Below, piece after piece: positions 203-5,301 of a DNA stretch of 64,000 nucleotides. The number at the start of each line of letters is the position of its first letter. Position 1 is the first letter of the stretch. The notes beneath the pieces are model-generated. The model worked only from the letters and a program-made list of their open reading frames with translations. It was not told the origin of the DNA and made no database searches. The stretch lies in the NCBI GenBank assembly GCA_964635965.1, contig CAZWQX010000001.1:18014-82013 (forward strand). Reading direction: 5' to 3'. Both the position numbers and the translations under genes were made by a program. Source of the stretch: an uncultured Cryomorphaceae bacterium (GTDB lineage: Bacteria; Bacteroidota; Bacteroidia; Flavobacteriales_D; Cryomorphaceae).

Positions 203-1141
203 TTAATCATATGCGTTGCAGGGCACAAAACCCACTTTTTGATTTCGTGGGCAAGCGCTGATTCCCAATATTATCTCGTGTCCATTAGAGGATCCCAATC
301 TCATTTTTGAGTAGTTGATGTCGTAAGCATAGGCAACGGTGAAGTAGTCCAAAAAGCTAAACTTCAACATTCCCGCCACGGCATCTTCTGATCGAAATGC
401 AACTCCAAGGGCCACGGTATTCATGTAATCAGCCCAGAAGTTTACGTCTAAAGAGGGTGTTGAGTTACCCGTAAATTTGAATTGAAATGCGGGGATGTAA
501 CTCATACGTTCGCCAGACTTATATATGCGTCCCGCCATAAGGTTAAAATTCGGTTGCATATTCACGTCTGTGCCGATATCATCGAGTGTCGGATTAGTTA
601 AGTGAGATCCACTAAATCCAACGAACCAATACTTACTGTATAGCCAAATCCCTGCCTTTATATCAGGAAATACAAGCTCTGTATCCGACGATTGAAGAAT
701 CGGGTCGGCCGGATTGGAAACAAAAACCTGCGAAGCGTCGAACCGGTATTGCATGGCACCAAGAGATACTCCAAATGATAAACGCGTTTTTCTGGATAAC
801 GGTAAATGGATCGCATAAGTAGCATGGAATGCCGTTCTGCTGGTGAATCCCGTGTTGTCTCCTTCTACAATCAGTCCAGCGCCATGAATGACACCTTTCT
901 CATTACTAATTGCGTCTATTCGTTGATGTGCCGAAAGAAAAATGGTTTTTGGATTGTTCTCAAATCCTACCCATTGGGTTCTGTAGCCGACTCTTGCATC
1001 CAGGCATTTCTTGAGTCCTGCTTGCGCAGGATTTAGCGCAAAAGAATTGAAAAGGAAATTCGTGAACTGCGCATTTTGTTGCCCGAAGCCTTGGCTAAAG
1101 CAGAATACCAGGAAAATCGCTGCCGTGAGTATTCGTTTCAT
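203..1141 (-). CDS. PorP/SprF family type IX secretion system membrane protein
   Basis: Signal peptide, QFTNFLFN...NPAQAG and YRTQWVG motifs, beta-barrel pattern, C-terminal YAYD...GHEI; adjacent to a type B CTD cargo gene. Confidence 0.92.
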   Translation of the reverse strand: MKRILTAAIFLVFCFSQGFGQQNAQFTNFLFNSFALNPAQAGLKKCLDARVGYRTQWVGFENNPKTIFLSAHQRIDAISNEKGVIHGAGLIVEGDNTGFTSRTAFHATYAIHLPLSRKTRLSFGVSLGAMQYRFDASQVFVSNPADPILQSSDTELVFPDIKAGIWLYSKYWFVGFSGSHLTNPTLDDIGTDVNMQPNFNLMAGRIYKSGERMSYIPAFQFKFTGNSTPSLDVNFWADYMNTVALGVAFRSEDAVAGMLKFSFLDYFTVAYAYDINYSKMRLGSSNGHEIILGISACPRNQKVGFVPCNAYD

Positions 1142-2178
1142 TATCTAAGTATCGTTACCGAACCGGTAATGGGTTCAGCATTAAAGTCAACTGGATTTAA
1201 TTCAATCACGTAGTAGTAAGTGGCGGCAGGCAGATCATCACCTCCCCAATCGTTCTCGTAGTTTGTCGATTGAAAAACTCTATTTCCCCAGCGCGAGTAA
1301 ACAAATATTTGAGCATTGGGCCACTCATCAATATTCTGTATTTCCCAAGTGTCATTGAACCCATCGCCATTAGGAGTGAAGGTATTGTATGGAATGATTG
1401 GTGGAAGAAGTACAAAGGAGACCTGACCGGTAAATATGCACCCGTCAACTTCGACTGTGGCGGTATACGTCACGGTTATGTCCACTCCTTCGGGATCTGC
1501 CGTAACCTCAGGTCCCGTCAAACTATTCAATTGAGGGCCTGACCACTGAATGGTGCCCAATCCACCTTCTGCTGTGAGGGTAACCGTTTCACCCGCAAAA
1601 ATGTCAGCTCTTCCCGGATTGACTTCAGGAAATGCGTCAACATCCAAATCGTATTCAAGAGCGGGACCTGAAACTCCGACGCTAAAACTACATTGAGAAG
1701 GGTCAGGACCAGATGTAGTCAATCCCGTAATCATTACAAAATAGGTAGTTGAAGGCTGCAACGACGCAAGATTGAACTGCCCTGATCCCTGGGTATCTGT
1801 TTCGCATAAAACCAAGTCAGTGAAAGTTGATCCATCACACAAATCAGAAGCCTGAAATACTGCAATTCCCAATGAGGTATCCGCCAAACAAGAATCTACT
1901 TGATAAACCAAGGTGGCCGTGCTATCGGTGTAGTCAATAAATGGAAAGGCATCCGTATCCTGAGTCTGAAAAGAATAGAATACTGCATTGGGAGCATCAC
2001 CAAAGCAAAATCCGGGACCTACATCAGAAGGAGCTCCATCCTCGTAAGTGTAGTTGGGAAAGTCTGCTAAAGGACAAAGAGTCTCGGGGGAGTTACAATC
2101 CTGAGCTTGCAAAGCGCAACTCAGAAGGAATACAAAACAAAAAGTCAGTACCTCCGATAAATGGGAGTTTACGGTCAT
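1141..2178 (-). CDS. T9SS type B sorting (gliding motility-associated CTD) protein
   Basis: C-terminal NTFTPNGDGFNDTW...FVYSRWGNRVF...YENDWGG...TYYY...GSVTILR; signal peptide; stop overlaps the porP start. Confidence 0.92.
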   Translation of the reverse strand: MTVNSHLSEVLTFCFVFLLSCALQAQDCNSPETLCPLADFPNYTYEDGAPSDVGPGFCFGDAPNAVFYSFQTQDTDAFPFIDYTDSTATLVYQVDSCLADTSLGIAVFQASDLCDGSTFTDLVLCETDTQGSGQFNLASLQPSTTYFVMITGLTTSGPDPSQCSFSVGVSGPALEYDLDVDAFPEVNPGRADIFAGETVTLTAEGGLGTIQWSGPQLNSLTGPEVTADPEGVDITVTYTATVEVDGCIFTGQVSFVLLPPIIPYNTFTPNGDGFNDTWEIQNIDEWPNAQIFVYSRWGNRVFQSTNYENDWGGDDLPAATYYYVIELNPVDFNAEPITGSVTILR

Positions 2179-2292: not shown

Positions 2293-3708
2293 TCATAAAA
2301 GGAAGAAGAGACCCCATCCAAGGAAGGTAGAAATGGCTGAAGTGATCAAATTGGTGATATCATTATTCACCCTGGAGAAACCGATGTGTTTAGTGATTCT
2401 CTCGGGAATCTTACTATCAGAAAAGTTGCCGTTCGATTGCAAATACTTGACCTGAGCGTGTTTCCCAATGAGACTGTCTGTTACATTTCCAAGGAAGCCT
2501 ATTGAACCAATGAGAATAAAATGCTGAACTTCCATTCCAATGAAAGGCATGAGAGAAATGGATGCTAATCCAAAGGAGGCAATCAAACCTGCCAGGGTTC
2601 CTTGCAGCGTTACAGCGCCACTTTCTCCAATTTCAACTTTGGTATTGCTGAATATGTAAATGTGCCTTTTGCCATATCGAATTCCAATCTCCGAAGAAGT
2701 GGTGTCGCTTAGTGCAAAGGCAAATCCGGAGACAAAACCAAAAAGAAAGGCAGGGCTGCCAATGATCAAATAAAGCATCAAGAAAATCACTGGTATTCCT
2801 CCGTTTGCGAATACCTGCATAAGGTCCCTCGGATCATTTTTAATCTTGCTACCCGGTAGCTTGGACAATAAGCTACCGATGAGAAAAAAAACCAAGGGAA
2901 AAATAAAGTACCTAGGCTCAGGACCAATAAGAAGAATCCACCCCATTAAAAACGACCCCAGGGCTCCATCACCTGTTAACCATTTTCGTTTGAATGTCAA
3001 ATAAGCGAAGGGAGCTAAAGCACCCAACCACAAGAGGGATGATATCTCGAATTCTATCATGAGCCAATAGACTGATGCTGACGGTACCCAAATATTGTCG
3101 AGTCCTTTTGCAGAAACTGCTTCGAGAAGCGTGAGAAACAACGAAATAAAAACAGCCTCCAAAAGGGAAACAGGGTATCCATGAAGCTCGGGAATGAGAA
3201 CGGAAGAAAAAGCTAGAATTAGCAACGTTGCCATGAAGAAAGCCAGACTCCCCTCAACGGTTTTCTTCTCGGATGAGAAACTGTAAATATTCTTGCCAAC
3301 GGAAAAACCCACAATTGTGGCAAGACCATCGCCCCAAGCAAGTATGGCTAAAGGATAGTAAACCAAATATGGTTTCTCATCTCCAAAAAAGTACACCAAA
3401 ATAAAAAAGGCAATGGCAAAATAGATTATCCCGAAACTCCGCCTTCCGGTTTCAGCCTCGATAAAAAATCCCTTCCAAACCGCTAGAGCTAAAAATGGAA
3501 TCGCTGCACCAATAATGACGAGCAACAATGAGACATCAAAATAGAATACAGAAATAGCAGAGGCCGAGATTGCTCCGACGTGAAGTATCTTTCGAGCGAA
3601 TACAGGATGAATTACTGATCTTCGACGAAGAACTTCAGCTAAAAAAATAAACACTACTACCGCAATCGCCAGGACTAGCTCCAAAAGAAGAATTTTGATC
3701 GAATCCAA
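2293..3708 (-). CDS. Fused phytol/dolichol kinase-like (CTP-transferase family) + DUF92/TMEM19 membrane protein (VTE5-VTE6-like)
   Basis: N-half RKILHV, WGDGLATIVG, KTVEGS, GLDNIWVP; C-half QVFANGG, SDTTSSEIG, GESGAVTLQGT, TDSLIG, NNDITN; highly hydrophobic. TTG start uncertain. Confidence 0.85.
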   Translation of the reverse strand: MDSIKILLLELVLAIAVVVFIFLAEVLRRRSVIHPVFARKILHVGAISASAISVFYFDVSLLLVIIGAAIPFLALAVWKGFFIEAETGRRSFGIIYFAIAFFILVYFFGDEKPYLVYYPLAILAWGDGLATIVGFSVGKNIYSFSSEKKTVEGSLAFFMATLLILAFSSVLIPELHGYPVSLLEAVFISLFLTLLEAVSAKGLDNIWVPSASVYWLMIEFEISSLLWLGALAPFAYLTFKRKWLTGDGALGSFLMGWILLIGPEPRYFIFPLVFFLIGSLLSKLPGSKIKNDPRDLMQVFANGGIPVIFLMLYLIIGSPAFLFGFVSGFAFALSDTTSSEIGIRYGKRHIYIFSNTKVEIGESGAVTLQGTLAGLIASFGLASISLMPFIGMEVQHFILIGSIGFLGNVTDSLIGKHAQVKYLQSNGNFSDSKIPERITKHIGFSRVNNDITNLITSAISTFLGWGLFFLL

Positions 3709-4441
3709 AAATAAAGCAAAGAATTGGCGACTTCCCGAATTAGAAGATCAGGATTGGTTCCCCGGGATTTTAAGGGAATACCAAACGGTGTTTTTATCCA
3801 CGCTTGATAGAACAACAGGCCTATATCAACCCATTGAGGGCTTACTTACGAGAATAAATCCGAGACCTGCCGTTATAGTTGATTTGGCAAGCGGATCAGG
3901 AGAGACAACAAGGCGAACCGTATCTGCCCTTGAGTCGAACGGGACCGTTTTAAACCTCACAGACAAGTACCCACTGAGATTGAAATCCAACCCATGGTCA
4001 ATCGAAAAACTTGATGTTCTGAAAGATCCGTTTCCAAAAGCAGATTTATACACCATCTTTAATGCTTTTCATCACTTCAATCATGGCGAACGTCTACTGA
4101 TTACCGTCAAGGCAAAAAACACGGGAGGTAAGTTTCTGGCAGTAGAACCATTGCAACCCAGCCTCATTGTTTTCATTAAAGTTTTCTTCTCAACACTGCT
4201 GGGACCTCTTGTTCTTGCACCTTTTATGAGACCCTTTTCATTTTGGTGGATTCTATACACCTATCTATTACCCGTTGGTCTGCTATCAGTGTGGTGGGAC
4301 GGCATGGCTTCAATAACAAAGTCCATTAGGTATGATAGCTTTGACCTCATCAAAAAAGAAATGGAAGATCGAGGGAACCAAGTTGAGCTTGGCGAGTTGA
4401 AAGGAAGATTAGCAAAACTCCGATATCTCCTGGTCGAATGA
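3695..4441 (+). CDS. Class I SAM-dependent methyltransferase-like protein
   Basis: Motif I IVDLASGSG, acidic residue after beta2 (LTDKYP), FNAFHHF; stop overlaps the next ATG (ATGA). TTG start. Confidence 0.7.
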   Translation: MIESKNKAKNWRLPELEDQDWFPGILREYQTVFLSTLDRTTGLYQPIEGLLTRINPRPAVIVDLASGSGETTRRTVSALESNGTVLNLTDKYPLRLKSNPWSIEKLDVLKDPFPKADLYTIFNAFHHFNHGERLLITVKAKNTGGKFLAVEPLQPSLIVFIKVFFSTLLGPLVLAPFMRPFSFWWILYTYLLPVGLLSVWWDGMASITKSIRYDSFDLIKKEMEDRGNQVELGELKGRLAKLRYLLVE

Positions 4442-5301
4442 AAACCTTTTGGAAATTCACTCGTCCGCATACAATCATTGGTTCTTTCATCAGTGTTACT
4501 GCACTTTATTTGCTTTCGGTAAGGTCTTTCGAATTCTCCGTGACTTTTTACTTTGCGCTTCTGGCAGCTCTGTTCTGTAATATATTCATCACAGGCTATA
4601 ATCAACTTGTTGATATCGAATTAGATAAGGTTAATAAACCCTATCTCCCTTTGGCTTCGGGCGAAATGAGCGTCAAAACGGGAAGAATTATCGTGTTCTC
4701 TTCACTGATTTTGTCAATAGTCATTTCGATACTAACCTCTTTTGAGTTATTCGGATTGATTGGAGTTATTTCCTTTTTAGGATTTATCTATTCTTGGAAA
4801 AGAATCTATTTAAAGCGCTACCACCAGTTGGCCGCTACCGCGATAATCCTTGTAAGAGGAATATTGGTCAATCTTGGATTTTACGCCTTCTTCTCTGATT
4901 CCCTTGAATTTCCTCCTGAAATATGGACACTAACATTTTTTGTAGTTCTATTTAGTGCGGGAATTGCTTGGTTTAAAGACATCCCCGATATGGAGGGAGA
5001 CGCCGCAGATAATATCGGCAGCCTGGCCGTCTTGAAAGGAGCTAAAAAAACATTCGCCGCAGGGGTATGGTTGATTGGTTCGGCCTACACCTTAGCTGCT
5101 TTTGCTCCTTTGTTGTTTGAATTTGAGCTGGCAAAATCGGGCTTGATCATATTTGGACATGGTTTGCTGGGAGGGACCTTTTTAGGTTTTGCCTCCAGAA
5201 CGAATCCATCCAATAAACAAGCAATGAAACGATTCTACATGAGCTTTTGGGTGTTATTTTTTCTGGAGTATTTGCTTTGGGTAGCAAGCTTCTTTATCTA
5301 G
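4438..5301 (+). CDS. Homogentisate phytyltransferase-like UbiA-superfamily prenyltransferase
   Basis: RPHTIIGS, NQLVDIELDKVNKPYLPLASGE and KDIPDMEGD match the plant VTE2/cyanobacterial HPT motifs; multiple TM helices. Confidence 0.88.
   Translation: MKTFWKFTRPHTIIGSFISVTALYLLSVRSFEFSVTFYFALLAALFCNIFITGYNQLVDIELDKVNKPYLPLASGEMSVKTGRIIVFSSLILSIVISILTSFELFGLIGVISFLGFIYSWKRIYLKRYHQLAATAIILVRGILVNLGFYAFFSDSLEFPPEIWTLTFFVVLFSAGIAWFKDIPDMEGDAADNIGSLAVLKGAKKTFAAGVWLIGSAYTLAAFAPLLFEFELAKSGLIIFGHGLLGGTFLGFASRTNPSNKQAMKRFYMSFWVLFFLEYLLWVASFFI

What the first reader, a model, noticed from the sequence alone, without database searches (positions are those of the whole stretch)
2293..5301. Tocopherol/plastoquinol-type prenylquinol cluster in an apparent non-photosynthetic Bacteroidota
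Seen: three adjacent genes encode a phytol-kinase-like + DUF92 fusion, a SAM methyltransferase-like protein, and a UbiA protein with the RPHT, NQxxDxxxDKVNKP and KDIPDxEGD motifs of homogentisate phytyltransferase. Established: in plants and cyanobacteria, VTE5 and VTE6 (DUF92) convert chlorophyll-derived phytol to phytyl-PP, VTE2/HPT condenses it with homogentisate to MPBQ, and methyltransferases then modify it. That pathway is regarded as typical of oxygenic phototrophs. Inference: this heterotroph may salvage algal phytol (or its own free prenols) and make a methylated phytyl-benzoquinol or chromanol antioxidant/quinone. No tocopherol cyclase or hppD is in the window, so the end product is open.
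Basis: partly seen in the sequence, partly recalled or inferred. Interest (0 to 1): 0.88.

Follow-up and report, generated by a model that had tools for sequence, protein, structure and literature searches.

The report
Bacteroidota prenol-salvage and prenylquinol gene trio
A rhodopsin-bearing, chlorophyll-free Cryomorphaceae bacterium carries a widely conserved three-gene set (a fused two-step prenol kinase, an unclassified methyltransferase and a vitamin-E-type homogentisate prenyltransferase) that probably makes a methylated prenyl-benzoquinol, a lipid studied so far only in plants, algae and cyanobacteria; no experiment has tested this.

Summary
Three ORFs lie exactly where stated. A 471-aa membrane protein (minus strand) joins a dolichol/phytol-kinase-superfamily domain to a DUF92 (VTE6-family) domain. 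A 248-aa protein with no Pfam family has a confidently modelled class I SAM-methyltransferase fold. Its stop codon overlaps (ATGA) the start of a 287-aa UbiA protein, which scores above NCBI's curated cut-off for homogentisate phytyltransferase.

The UbiA protein sits in a Bacteroidota-only clade, in a trichotomy with cyanobacterial-type and plant HPT clades. The trio is the only conserved neighbourhood across 80 loci (Cryomorphaceae, Saprospiraceae, Chitinophagaceae). The methyltransferase occurs only where the prenyltransferase does.

The genome (97% complete) has hppD next to an hmgA-like gene, phytoene synthase, MenA and a rhodopsin. It has no photosystem genes, chlorophyll synthase, tocopherol cyclase or geranylgeranyl reductase.

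Best reading: a salvaged prenol is diphosphorylated, joined to homogentisate and ring-methylated, and the product stays a quinol or quinone rather than a tocopherol. Substrates and product are inferred.

NCBI and JGI already name these proteins "homogentisate phytyltransferase". This scan found the same module before in another Bacteroidota genome. I found no published study of it.

The parts
2293..3708 (-). 471-aa polytopic membrane protein: a fusion of two homologous CTP-transferase-fold domains, the predicted prenol kinase plus prenyl-phosphate kinase
   Evidence: ORF. AlphaFold2 model has mean pLDDT 92.4 and is all-helical. Full-length orthologues occur in 53 of 80 HPT loci. Full-length relatives also exist in Treponemataceae, Calditrichaeota and Heimdallarchaeota proteins.
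3025..3708 (-). N-terminal domain (residues 1-228): dolichol/phytol-kinase-like (COG0170 / PF01148 superfamily)
   Evidence: The window's own copy has no Pfam hit. Of 44 orthologous N-halves, 7 hit PF01148, best E 8e-6. Invariant residues are K40, H43, G93, D127, G134, E196, D204, N205 and P209. hhalign against the DUF92 half gives 82% probability, E 1e-5, and aligns D127 with the DUF92 Asp. The same architecture is described in archaea (PMC5898192).
2332..3012 (-). C-terminal DUF92 domain (residues 233-459), the family of plant and cyanobacterial phytyl-phosphate kinase VTE6
   Evidence: Pfam PF01940 E 2e-46, 158.8 bits. TIGR00297 scores 96.7 bits, below its 205.85 cut-off.
3695..4441 (+). 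248-aa unclassified class I SAM-dependent methyltransferase with an inserted hydrophobic helical cap (residues about 157-225)
   Evidence: No Pfam or NCBIfam family. AlphaFold2 mean pLDDT 93.9. Foldseek against the PDB: top hits are all small-molecule SAM methyltransferases (BelI 9fce E 8e-7, Plu4890-95, ASMT, Coq5, BchU). Invariant residues are G67, D90, N123, H126, H127 and E151; D63, S66 and G69 of the DLxSGSG motif are nearly invariant. The family has 506 members, all named 'hypothetical' apart from occasional 'UbiE' labels, none with a Pfam domain.
4438..5301 (+). 287-aa UbiA-superfamily prenyltransferase of the homogentisate prenyltransferase (HPT/HST/HGGT) family, Bacteroidota subclade
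   Evidence: NF009525 scores 250.4 bits against a cut-off of 226; the next family scores 84 bits and ChlG 57 bits. Both Asp-rich motifs are invariant.
4438..4441 (+). ATGA overlap of the methyltransferase stop and the UbiA start (likely translational coupling)
   Evidence: Sequence read directly.

Best explanation
This is a self-contained three-gene module for making a methylated prenyl-benzoquinol in the cytoplasmic membrane.

Inferred steps:
1. The fused kinase phosphorylates a free C20-type prenol twice, presumably with CTP. The alcohol would be phytol released from algal or cyanobacterial chlorophyll, or geranylgeraniol. The N-domain makes prenyl phosphate and the DUF92 domain makes prenyl diphosphate, possibly channelled within one protein.
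2. HppD, encoded elsewhere in the genome, supplies homogentisate from tyrosine breakdown.
3. The HPT-clade UbiA enzyme joins the prenyl chain to homogentisate with loss of CO2, giving a 2-methyl-6-prenyl-1,4-benzoquinol.
4. The co-translated membrane-associated methyltransferase methylates the ring. C-3 methylation, as VTE3 does, is the most likely site; O-methylation is not excluded.
5. No tocopherol cyclase is present, so the product stays a quinol/quinone. It would resemble a short-chain plastoquinol, and most likely serves as a membrane antioxidant in a carotenoid- and rhodopsin-bearing surface-water heterotroph.

Shown: gene identities at family or fold level, co-conservation, and the genomic presence or absence of the partner genes. 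Inferred: all substrates, the methylation site, the product and its role.
For: UbiA protein:
- It passes the curated HPT model.
- It forms a Bacteroidota clade (SH-aLRT 99). That clade is in a trichotomy (support 93) with a clade holding a cyanobacterial HPT and a clade holding plant HPT1.

Co-conservation:
- Only three gene clusters recur across the 80 loci: UbiA 76, methyltransferase 61, fusion 53.
- Of 65 loci with enough upstream DNA, 53 have the methyltransferase directly upstream and 49 have the divergent DUF92 gene.
- In the window's GTDB family (27 genomes), HPT is in 23, the fusion in 25 and the methyltransferase in 20. The methyltransferase is never found without HPT.

Partner genes:
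- hppD is present here beside an hmgA-like gene and in 47 of 50 other carrier genomes.
- No VTE1-type cyclase here or in 47 of 50 carriers.
- No geranylgeranyl reductase here, which fits salvage.
- In two Saprospirales loci a GG-reductase-family gene sits directly upstream of the HPT gene, pointing to a saturated chain in at least some lineages.

Other proteins:
- The methyltransferase fold and SAM-motif residues are conserved.
- The two kinase halves are homologous and keep the key Asp.
Against: - No member of the Bacteroidota HPT clade, the methyltransferase family or the fused kinase has been assayed.
- The N-domain's kinship to VTE5 rests on weak profile hits. Foldseek of the whole fusion found nothing significant.
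- hppD is nearly universal in this family whether or not HPT is present (26 of 27), so its presence does not discriminate.
- The fusion also occurs in two related genomes that lack HPT, so it is not dedicated to HPT.
- GGPP is made de novo here (phytoene synthase), so salvage is not strictly required.
- Half of the carrier genomes do have a GG-reductase-family gene.
- To my knowledge, chemotaxonomy of Bacteroidota reports only menaquinones.
Confidence: 0.55

Rival explanations
1. The head-group chemistry is the same, but the prenyl donor is made de novo: GGPP, or the C30-C35 diphosphate also used for menaquinone. The product would be a tocotrienol-precursor-like or plastoquinone-like benzoquinol, possibly a higher-potential electron carrier beside menaquinone. 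The kinase fusion would serve general prenyl-phosphate recycling and not feed this enzyme specifically.
For: Phytoene synthase shows that GGPP is made. MenA shows that a long-chain diphosphate is made. The fusion occurs without HPT in two related genomes. Ten of 65 loci have the methyltransferase and HPT but no fusion nearby. No GG reductase is present.
Against: The divergent fusion is the commonest neighbour of the methyltransferase-HPT pair across orders. In six loci it is the only partner next to HPT. Fusions of the same kind sit beside other UbiA enzymes in other phyla (scan notes, not checked here).
Confidence: 0.2
2. The UbiA enzyme prenylates an aromatic acceptor other than homogentisate, as plant HPT/HST descendants that act on flavonoids or coumarins do. 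The methyltransferase would then modify that different head group.
For: No characterised enzyme lies in the Bacteroidota clade, which is a separate lineage at 36-44% identity to plant and cyanobacterial-type members. hppD is not linked to the module and is present regardless of HPT. The methyltransferase is unrelated to VTE3 or gamma-TMT at family level.
Against: The curated HPT model is passed by 24 bits, and all other UbiA models score far below their cut-offs. hppD is present in 47 of 50 carriers. A neighbouring clade contains HPT genes beside a tocopherol cyclase and a methyltransferase, so homogentisate use is the family's ancestral state as far as is known.
Confidence: 0.15
3. The module is part of a complete tocopherol (chromanol) pathway that uses a non-homologous, unrecognised cyclase.
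For: The first steps are present. Another Bacteroidota lineage is reported by this scan to carry a VTE3/gamma-TMT/HPT operon (not checked here).
Against: PF14249 is absent here (97% complete genome) and in 47 of 50 carriers. No fourth conserved gene lies in the neighbourhood.
Confidence: 0.05

Closest known systems
Plant and cyanobacterial homogentisate phytyltransferase (VTE2/HPT, Synechocystis Slr1736) and its paralogues HST and HGGT
   Same: Same UbiA family: it passes the NF009525 cut-off, keeps both Asp-rich motifs, and has 36-42% identity to plant-length members. It lies in a trichotomy with the cyanobacterial-type and plant clades. hppD is present to supply the acceptor.
   Different: It forms a separate Bacteroidota-only clade with no assayed member. 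The host lacks chlorophyll, photosystems, tocopherol cyclase and GG reductase. The partner methyltransferase belongs to a different family from VTE3 and gamma-TMT.
VTE5 (phytol kinase) plus VTE6 (phytyl-phosphate kinase, DUF92/COG1836): phytol salvage of plants and cyanobacteria
   Same: The same two protein superfamilies occur in the order expected for two successive phosphorylations. DUF92 is clearly recognised. The link of COG1836 to phytol-phosphate metabolism was itself first drawn from prokaryote comparative genomics (PMC3223725; PMC9782597).
   Different: The two activities are fused in one polypeptide here. The N-domain is too divergent for Pfam in this genome. The organism has no chlorophyll of its own, so any phytol must be exogenous. 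The alcohol actually used is unknown.
Archaeal COG0170 (Sec59-like) plus COG1836 fusions, e.g. Methanosarcina barkeri Mbar_A3310 (Makarova et al. 2015, PMC5898192)
   Same: Same two-domain architecture, with the catalytic aspartates conserved in both halves. Full-length relatives are found in Heimdallarchaeota and other phyla.
   Different: The archaeal genes are linked to uppS and were tied to glycosylation lipid carriers. Here the conserved partner is an aromatic prenyltransferase.
VTE3 (MPBQ/MSBQ methyltransferase) and Sll0418 of cyanobacteria
   Same: The predicted role, SAM-dependent ring methylation of the prenylated quinol, and the position beside the prenyltransferase gene match arrangements seen in other bacteria (a Methyltransf_11 gene coupled to HPT in L098).
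   Different: It is not the same family: there is no Methyltransf_11 or UbiE-family match above threshold. It has a distinctive FNAFHHF motif and an inserted hydrophobic helical cap.
EboC / Ubi-297 prenyltransferase of marine Flavobacteria (PMC9235831)
   Same: It is a UbiA-superfamily aromatic prenyltransferase in Bacteroidota.
   Different: It is a different family: the window protein scores 27.6 bits against EboC's cut-off of 250. That survey of eight flavobacterial genera found no homogentisate prenyltransferases at all.

Membership tests
Homogentisate prenyltransferases (HPT/HST/HGGT; NCBIfam NF009525, KEGG K09833) | UbiA fold with NQxxDxxxD and KDxxDxxGD Asp-rich motifs | tested here: met
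   PF01040 scores 133.5 bits. The motifs are at residues 55-63 and 180-188 and are invariant in 17 relatives.
Homogentisate prenyltransferases (HPT/HST/HGGT; NCBIfam NF009525, KEGG K09833) | Score above the curated equivalog cut-off and well above other UbiA families | tested here: met
   NF009525 scores 250.4 against a cut-off of 226. The next family scores 84.3, ChlG 56.7 and DGGGPS 44.2. In the GTDB family, 23 of 27 genomes score above the cut-off.
Homogentisate prenyltransferases (HPT/HST/HGGT; NCBIfam NF009525, KEGG K09833) | Phylogenetic position among cyanobacterial and plant HPT/HST | tested here: met
   The Bacteroidota clade (support 99) is in a trichotomy (support 93) with a clade holding a cyanobacterial MAG HPT and a clade holding Zingiber HPT1. 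Reference labels are database names, not the assayed proteins themselves. The outgroups are distant paralogues only.
Homogentisate prenyltransferases (HPT/HST/HGGT; NCBIfam NF009525, KEGG K09833) | Decarboxylative prenylation of homogentisate | not testable with these tools
   This needs an enzyme assay. Only the supply side was tested: hppD is present here (453 bits) and in 47 of 50 carriers.
VTE5-type phytol kinase / dolichol kinase (COG0170, PF01148 superfamily) | Recognisable match to the cytidylyltransferase / dolichol-kinase profile | tested here: inconclusive
   The window's N-half has no hit even at E 10. Of 44 orthologous N-halves, 7 hit PF01148, best E 8e-6. NCBIfam and PDB profiles gave nothing.
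VTE5-type phytol kinase / dolichol kinase (COG0170, PF01148 superfamily) | Conserved catalytic acidic residues shared with the CdsA/DUF92 fold | tested here: met
   D127, D204 and N205 are invariant. hhalign of the N-half against the DUF92 half gives 82% probability and aligns D127 with the DUF92 Asp.
VTE6 / DUF92 (PF01940, COG1836) | Pfam DUF92 domain | tested here: met
   158.8 bits against a cut-off of 27.5, residues 233-459. TIGR00297 scores only 96.7 against 205.85.
VTE6 / DUF92 (PF01940, COG1836) | Prenyl-phosphate kinase activity | not testable with these tools
   This needs an assay with prenyl phosphate and CTP or another NTP.
Class I SAM-dependent methyltransferases | Rossmann-like seven-strand fold with a glycine-rich SAM motif and acidic ribose-binding residue | tested here: met
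   The model has pLDDT 93.9. There are 231 PDB matches at E<=0.001, and the 50 listed are almost all SAM methyltransferases. The DLxSGSG motif and D90 are conserved.
VTE3 / gamma-TMT / UbiE methyltransferase families | Membership of Methyltransf_11 or Ubie_methyltran above threshold | tested here: not met
   No family reaches E 0.01 for the window protein. Among 52 orthologues there are only weak Methyltransf_25 hits (21, best E 0.0011) and Ubie_methyltran in 2 (E 0.013).
Complete tocopherol pathway | Tocopherol cyclase VTE1 (PF14249) | tested here: not met
   No match in the 97%-complete genome. Only 3 of 50 other carrier genomes have a match.
Complete tocopherol pathway | De novo phytyl-PP supply by geranylgeranyl reductase | tested here: not met
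   The best TIGR02032 hit scores 41 bits against a cut-off of 158.8. tblastn with a Saprospirales GG-reductase finds nothing. Among other carriers, 24 of 50 have one.

The most novel reading that the evidence does not exclude
Heterotrophic Bacteroidota that live among algae and cyanobacteria take up the phytol tail of degraded chlorophyll. They activate it with a single fused kinase and attach it to homogentisate, building their own methyl-phytyl-benzoquinol. This would be a vitamin-E-precursor-type antioxidant made outside oxygenic phototrophs, from a phototroph's waste lipid, using a methyltransferase family not yet described.
Probability: 0.3. Interest if true: 0.8.

Novelty: new variant of a known kind. 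Interest (0 to 1): 0.6.

Why it matters
Tocochromanol- and plastoquinol-type lipids and the VTE5/VTE6 phytol salvage route are treated as hallmarks of oxygenic phototrophs.

This conserved module is present in 23 of 27 genomes of this Cryomorphaceae family. It is also common in Saprospiraceae and Chitinophagaceae. If it works as predicted, it would:
- extend homogentisate-derived prenylquinols to abundant aquatic and soil heterotrophs;
- add a benzoquinol to a phylum known only for menaquinones;
- give a function to an uncharacterised methyltransferase family of about 500 proteins;
- provide a compact single-protein prenol-to-diphosphate kinase, useful for studying or engineering prenol salvage.

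It would also suggest a route by which chlorophyll-derived phytol is recycled in microbial food webs.

Cultured carriers exist (Cryomorpha ignava, Ferruginibacter species), so the question can be tested directly.

Tried and rejected
Searches that gave nothing useful:
- Foldseek of the full-length fusion model against the PDB gave nothing significant. CdsA 4q2g was rank 4 at E 0.68. The two-domain query probably hampers alignment, and I could not cut the model.
- The PDB sequence profile and NCBIfam scans of the N-half gave only noise.
- Ten literature searches found no paper on HPT-type enzymes, this methyltransferase or this fusion in Bacteroidota. The VTE6 paper (vom Dorp 2015) is not held.

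Tests that did not discriminate:
- hppD co-occurrence as a test of homogentisate use. hppD is in 26 of 27 genomes of the family regardless of HPT. The 47 of 50 result is therefore only consistent. I did not run a phylum-wide background.

Alternative identities of the UbiA protein, rejected on model scores:
- Chlorophyll/bacteriochlorophyll synthase: 56.7 bits against a cut-off of 313.
- DGGGP synthase: 44 bits against 353. A separate paralogue exists on contig C39.
- EboC: 27.6 bits against 250.
- MenA: 19.8 bits against 277. The true MenA is on contig C71.

Other:
- No fourth conserved gene was found. Clustering all ORFs of the 80 loci gave only the three families.
Full report
**1. What is in the sequence**

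Three ORFs match the finding's coordinates:
- 2293-3708 on the minus strand, 471 aa;
- 3695-4441 on the plus strand, 248 aa;
- 4438-5301 on the plus strand, 287 aa.

The second and third genes share an ATGA stop/start overlap. The first gene is divergent, and its annotated start overlaps the second gene's start by 14 bp. So this is a divergent pair of transcription units, not one operon.

The flanking genes are unrelated:
- upstream, a T9SS CHU_C cargo protein and a PorP/SprF protein;
- downstream, methionyl-tRNA synthetase, an LD-carboxypeptidase and a DUF4412 protein.

**2. The prenyltransferase**

The 287-aa protein is a UbiA-family member (PF01040, 133.5 bits). It passes NCBI's curated equivalog model for homogentisate phytyltransferase: NF009525 scores 250.4 bits against a cut-off of 226. 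The next best UbiA model scores 84 bits, chlorophyll synthase 57, DGGGP synthase 44 and EboC 28.

A full scan of 1.84 billion representative proteins gave 162 hits below 1e-30. In a FastTree of the best 150 and an IQ-TREE of 58 chosen rows:
- The window protein lies in a clade of Bacteroidota proteins (support 99).
- That clade forms a trichotomy (support 93) with two others. One contains a cyanobacterial MAG protein named HPT. The other contains about 400-aa eukaryotic proteins, including Zingiber HPT1.
- An Asgard (Hodarchaeales) group and a group that JGI names HST fall outside.

Caveats: the reference labels are database names rather than the assayed proteins, and the only outgroups available were this genome's own distant paralogues.

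**3. The kinase fusion**

Residues 233-459 are a clear DUF92 domain (E 2e-46). This is the family of the plant and cyanobacterial phytyl-phosphate kinase VTE6. The family's link to phytol-phosphate metabolism came from prokaryote-plant comparative genomics (PMC3223725; PMC9782597).

The N-terminal 228 residues have no Pfam match in this genome, even at E 10. Supporting evidence for the N-half is as follows:
- Of 44 orthologous N-halves, 7 hit PF01148, the cytidylyltransferase/dolichol-kinase family that also holds VTE5, with a best E of 8e-6.
- The invariant residues (K40, H43, D127, G134, D204, N205) fit that superfamily.
- A profile-profile comparison shows the two halves are homologous to each other (82% probability, E 1e-5), with D127 aligned to the conserved DUF92 aspartate.

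Makarova et al. described exactly this architecture (COG0170 Sec59-like plus COG1836) in archaea, and noted the conserved catalytic aspartates in both halves (PMC5898192). Full-length relatives occur in Treponemataceae, Calditrichaeota and Heimdallarchaeota.

The AlphaFold2 model is confident (pLDDT 92.4). Foldseek of the whole protein against the PDB found nothing significant.

**4. The methyltransferase**

The 248-aa protein matches no Pfam or NCBIfam family. Its orthologues give only weak class I methyltransferase hits, and a profile against PDB sequences reaches only E 0.02.

The AlphaFold2 model built on 52 orthologues is very confident (pLDDT 93.9). Its PDB matches are almost all SAM-dependent small-molecule methyltransferases: BelI, the Plu4890-95 anthraquinone O-methyltransferases, ASMT, Coq5 and BchU. 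The best E is 8e-7, probability 1.0.

Conserved features:
- The canonical SAM-binding positions are kept: the DLxSGSG motif and D90.
- A distinctive motif, N123-x-x-H126-H127, and E151 are also conserved.
- A hydrophobic helical insert at about residues 157-225 probably sits on the membrane.

The family has about 500 members. They are named 'hypothetical protein', with occasional 'UbiE' labels, and none carries a Pfam domain. It is not the VTE3, gamma-TMT or UbiE family.

**5. Co-conservation**

A scan of one genome per prokaryotic species found at least 271 loci encoding relatives of the UbiA protein. The best 80 come almost entirely from Bacteroidota: Cryomorphaceae, other Flavobacteriales, Saprospiraceae and Chitinophagaceae, including cultured Cryomorpha ignava and Ferruginibacter.

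Clustering every ORF in those loci gave only three recurrent families: UbiA in 76 loci, the methyltransferase in 61 and the fusion in 53.

Among 65 loci with at least 2.6 kb upstream:

| Arrangement upstream of the UbiA gene | Loci |
|---|---|
| Methyltransferase directly upstream | 53 |
| Divergent DUF92 gene | 49 |
| All three parts recognisable by tblastn | 34 |
| Neither partner | 5 |

In the window's GTDB family (27 genomes, 8 genera; it contains Cryomorpha ignava):
- HPT is above the cut-off in 23 genomes.
- The fusion is in 25.
- The methyltransferase is in 20.
- The methyltransferase is absent from all four HPT-negative genomes.
- The fusion is present in two HPT-negative genomes, so it is not exclusive to this pathway.

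**6. The rest of the genome (3.96 Mb, 97% complete)**

Present:
- hppD at 453 bits, next to a divergent hmgA-like gene, so homogentisate is made and also catabolised.
- Three other UbiA paralogues: heme O synthase, MenA and a DGGGP-synthase-like protein.
- Phytoene synthase, which implies GGPP is made.
- A microbial rhodopsin.

Absent:
- A chlorophyll synthase among the UbiA paralogues.
- Type II and type I reaction-centre genes.
- Tocopherol cyclase.
- A geranylgeranyl reductase family member. The best hit scores 41 bits against a cut-off of 158.8, and tblastn with a Saprospirales GG-reductase finds nothing.

In 50 other carrier genomes:

| Gene | Genomes with it (of 50) |
|---|---|
| hppD | 47 |
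| GG-reductase family member | 24 |
| Tocopherol-cyclase-like gene | 3 |

In two Saprospirales loci a GG-reductase-family gene (225 bits) lies directly upstream of the HPT gene.

**7. Interpretation**

The best-supported reading is a membrane module in four steps:
1. It activates a free C20-type prenol to its diphosphate.
2. It attaches the prenyl chain to homogentisate.
3. It methylates the ring.
4. With no cyclase, it stops at the quinol/quinone stage.

This genus cannot reduce GGPP. A phytyl chain would therefore have to come from exogenous phytol; otherwise the chain is geranylgeranyl.

The rhodopsin and carotenoid genes indicate a light-exposed lifestyle. A lipid antioxidant would be useful there, and chlorophyll-derived phytol is available.

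All substrates and the product are inferred. Rival readings are scored in their own section of this report: a de novo prenyl donor with the fusion serving general recycling, a different aromatic acceptor, and a hidden cyclase.

**8. What is already known**

NCBI and JGI pipelines already name these proteins 'homogentisate phytyltransferase', so the family assignment is not new.

I found no paper that studies them. A 2022 survey of UbiA enzymes in eight flavobacterial genera reported no homogentisate prenyltransferases (PMC9235831).

This scan has met the same module before on other DNA (note e1-4426141) and related fusion-UbiA pairs in Acidobacteria. I reached the same reading independently from this window's data.

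Overall I rate it a new variant of a known kind:
- known enzyme families in a new host group;
- a fused kinase;
- a new methyltransferase family;
- probably a different end product.

Noticed in passing
own genome contig C39:19429-20193 (L085), outside the window: A fourth UbiA paralogue resembles archaeal digeranylgeranylglyceryl-phosphate synthase (NF009513 227.8 bits, NF009512 180 bits, both below their cut-offs). This kind of gene has been discussed for FCB-group bacteria as ether-lipid potential. It could be another consumer of the kinase fusion's product.
   Followed up: partly
L098:1724-4954 (metagenome contig carrying P0206): A bacterial contig outside the Bacteroidota clade carries a Tocopherol_cycl gene, then a Methyltransf_11 gene coupled to an HPT-family gene, with a glyoxalase-fold gene nearby. 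It looks like a complete tocopherol-type cluster in an unidentified bacterium.
   Followed up: no
L077:4548-5801 and L058:61-1008: In two Saprospirales genomes a geranylgeranyl-reductase-family gene (TIGR02032 225 bits) lies directly upstream of the HPT-clade gene, in place of the methyltransferase and kinase fusion. This is a variant module that points to a saturated side chain.
   Followed up: partly
genomes G002 and G003 (same GTDB family): The kinase fusion is present (E 1e-132 to 1e-139) in two genomes that lack both the HPT-clade gene and the methyltransferase. The fusion must therefore have another client there.
   Followed up: no
proteins P0222 / P0338 (Candidatus Hodarchaeales): Asgard archaeal MAGs encode proteins that NCBI names homogentisate phytyltransferase. 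They branch just outside the plant/cyanobacterial/Bacteroidota trichotomy.
   Followed up: no
window 203-2178 (-): A CHU_C (T9SS type B sorting domain) protein is followed by a PorP/SprF protein, with a one-base overlap between the two ORFs. The pair is conserved next to the module only in the closest relatives (10 loci).
   Followed up: partly
own genome contig C45:21174-21863 (L103): A microbial rhodopsin (PF01036, 142.6 bits) is present, so the organism is probably a rhodopsin photoheterotroph. Phytoene synthase is split across the ends of contigs C110 and C3.
   Followed up: no
window 3682-3708: The annotated TTG starts of the divergent fusion and methyltransferase genes overlap by 14 bp, and the same geometry recurs in L002 and L003. 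Either a downstream TTG (3684-3682, minus strand) is the real fusion start, or both promoters lie inside the opposite coding region.
   Followed up: partly
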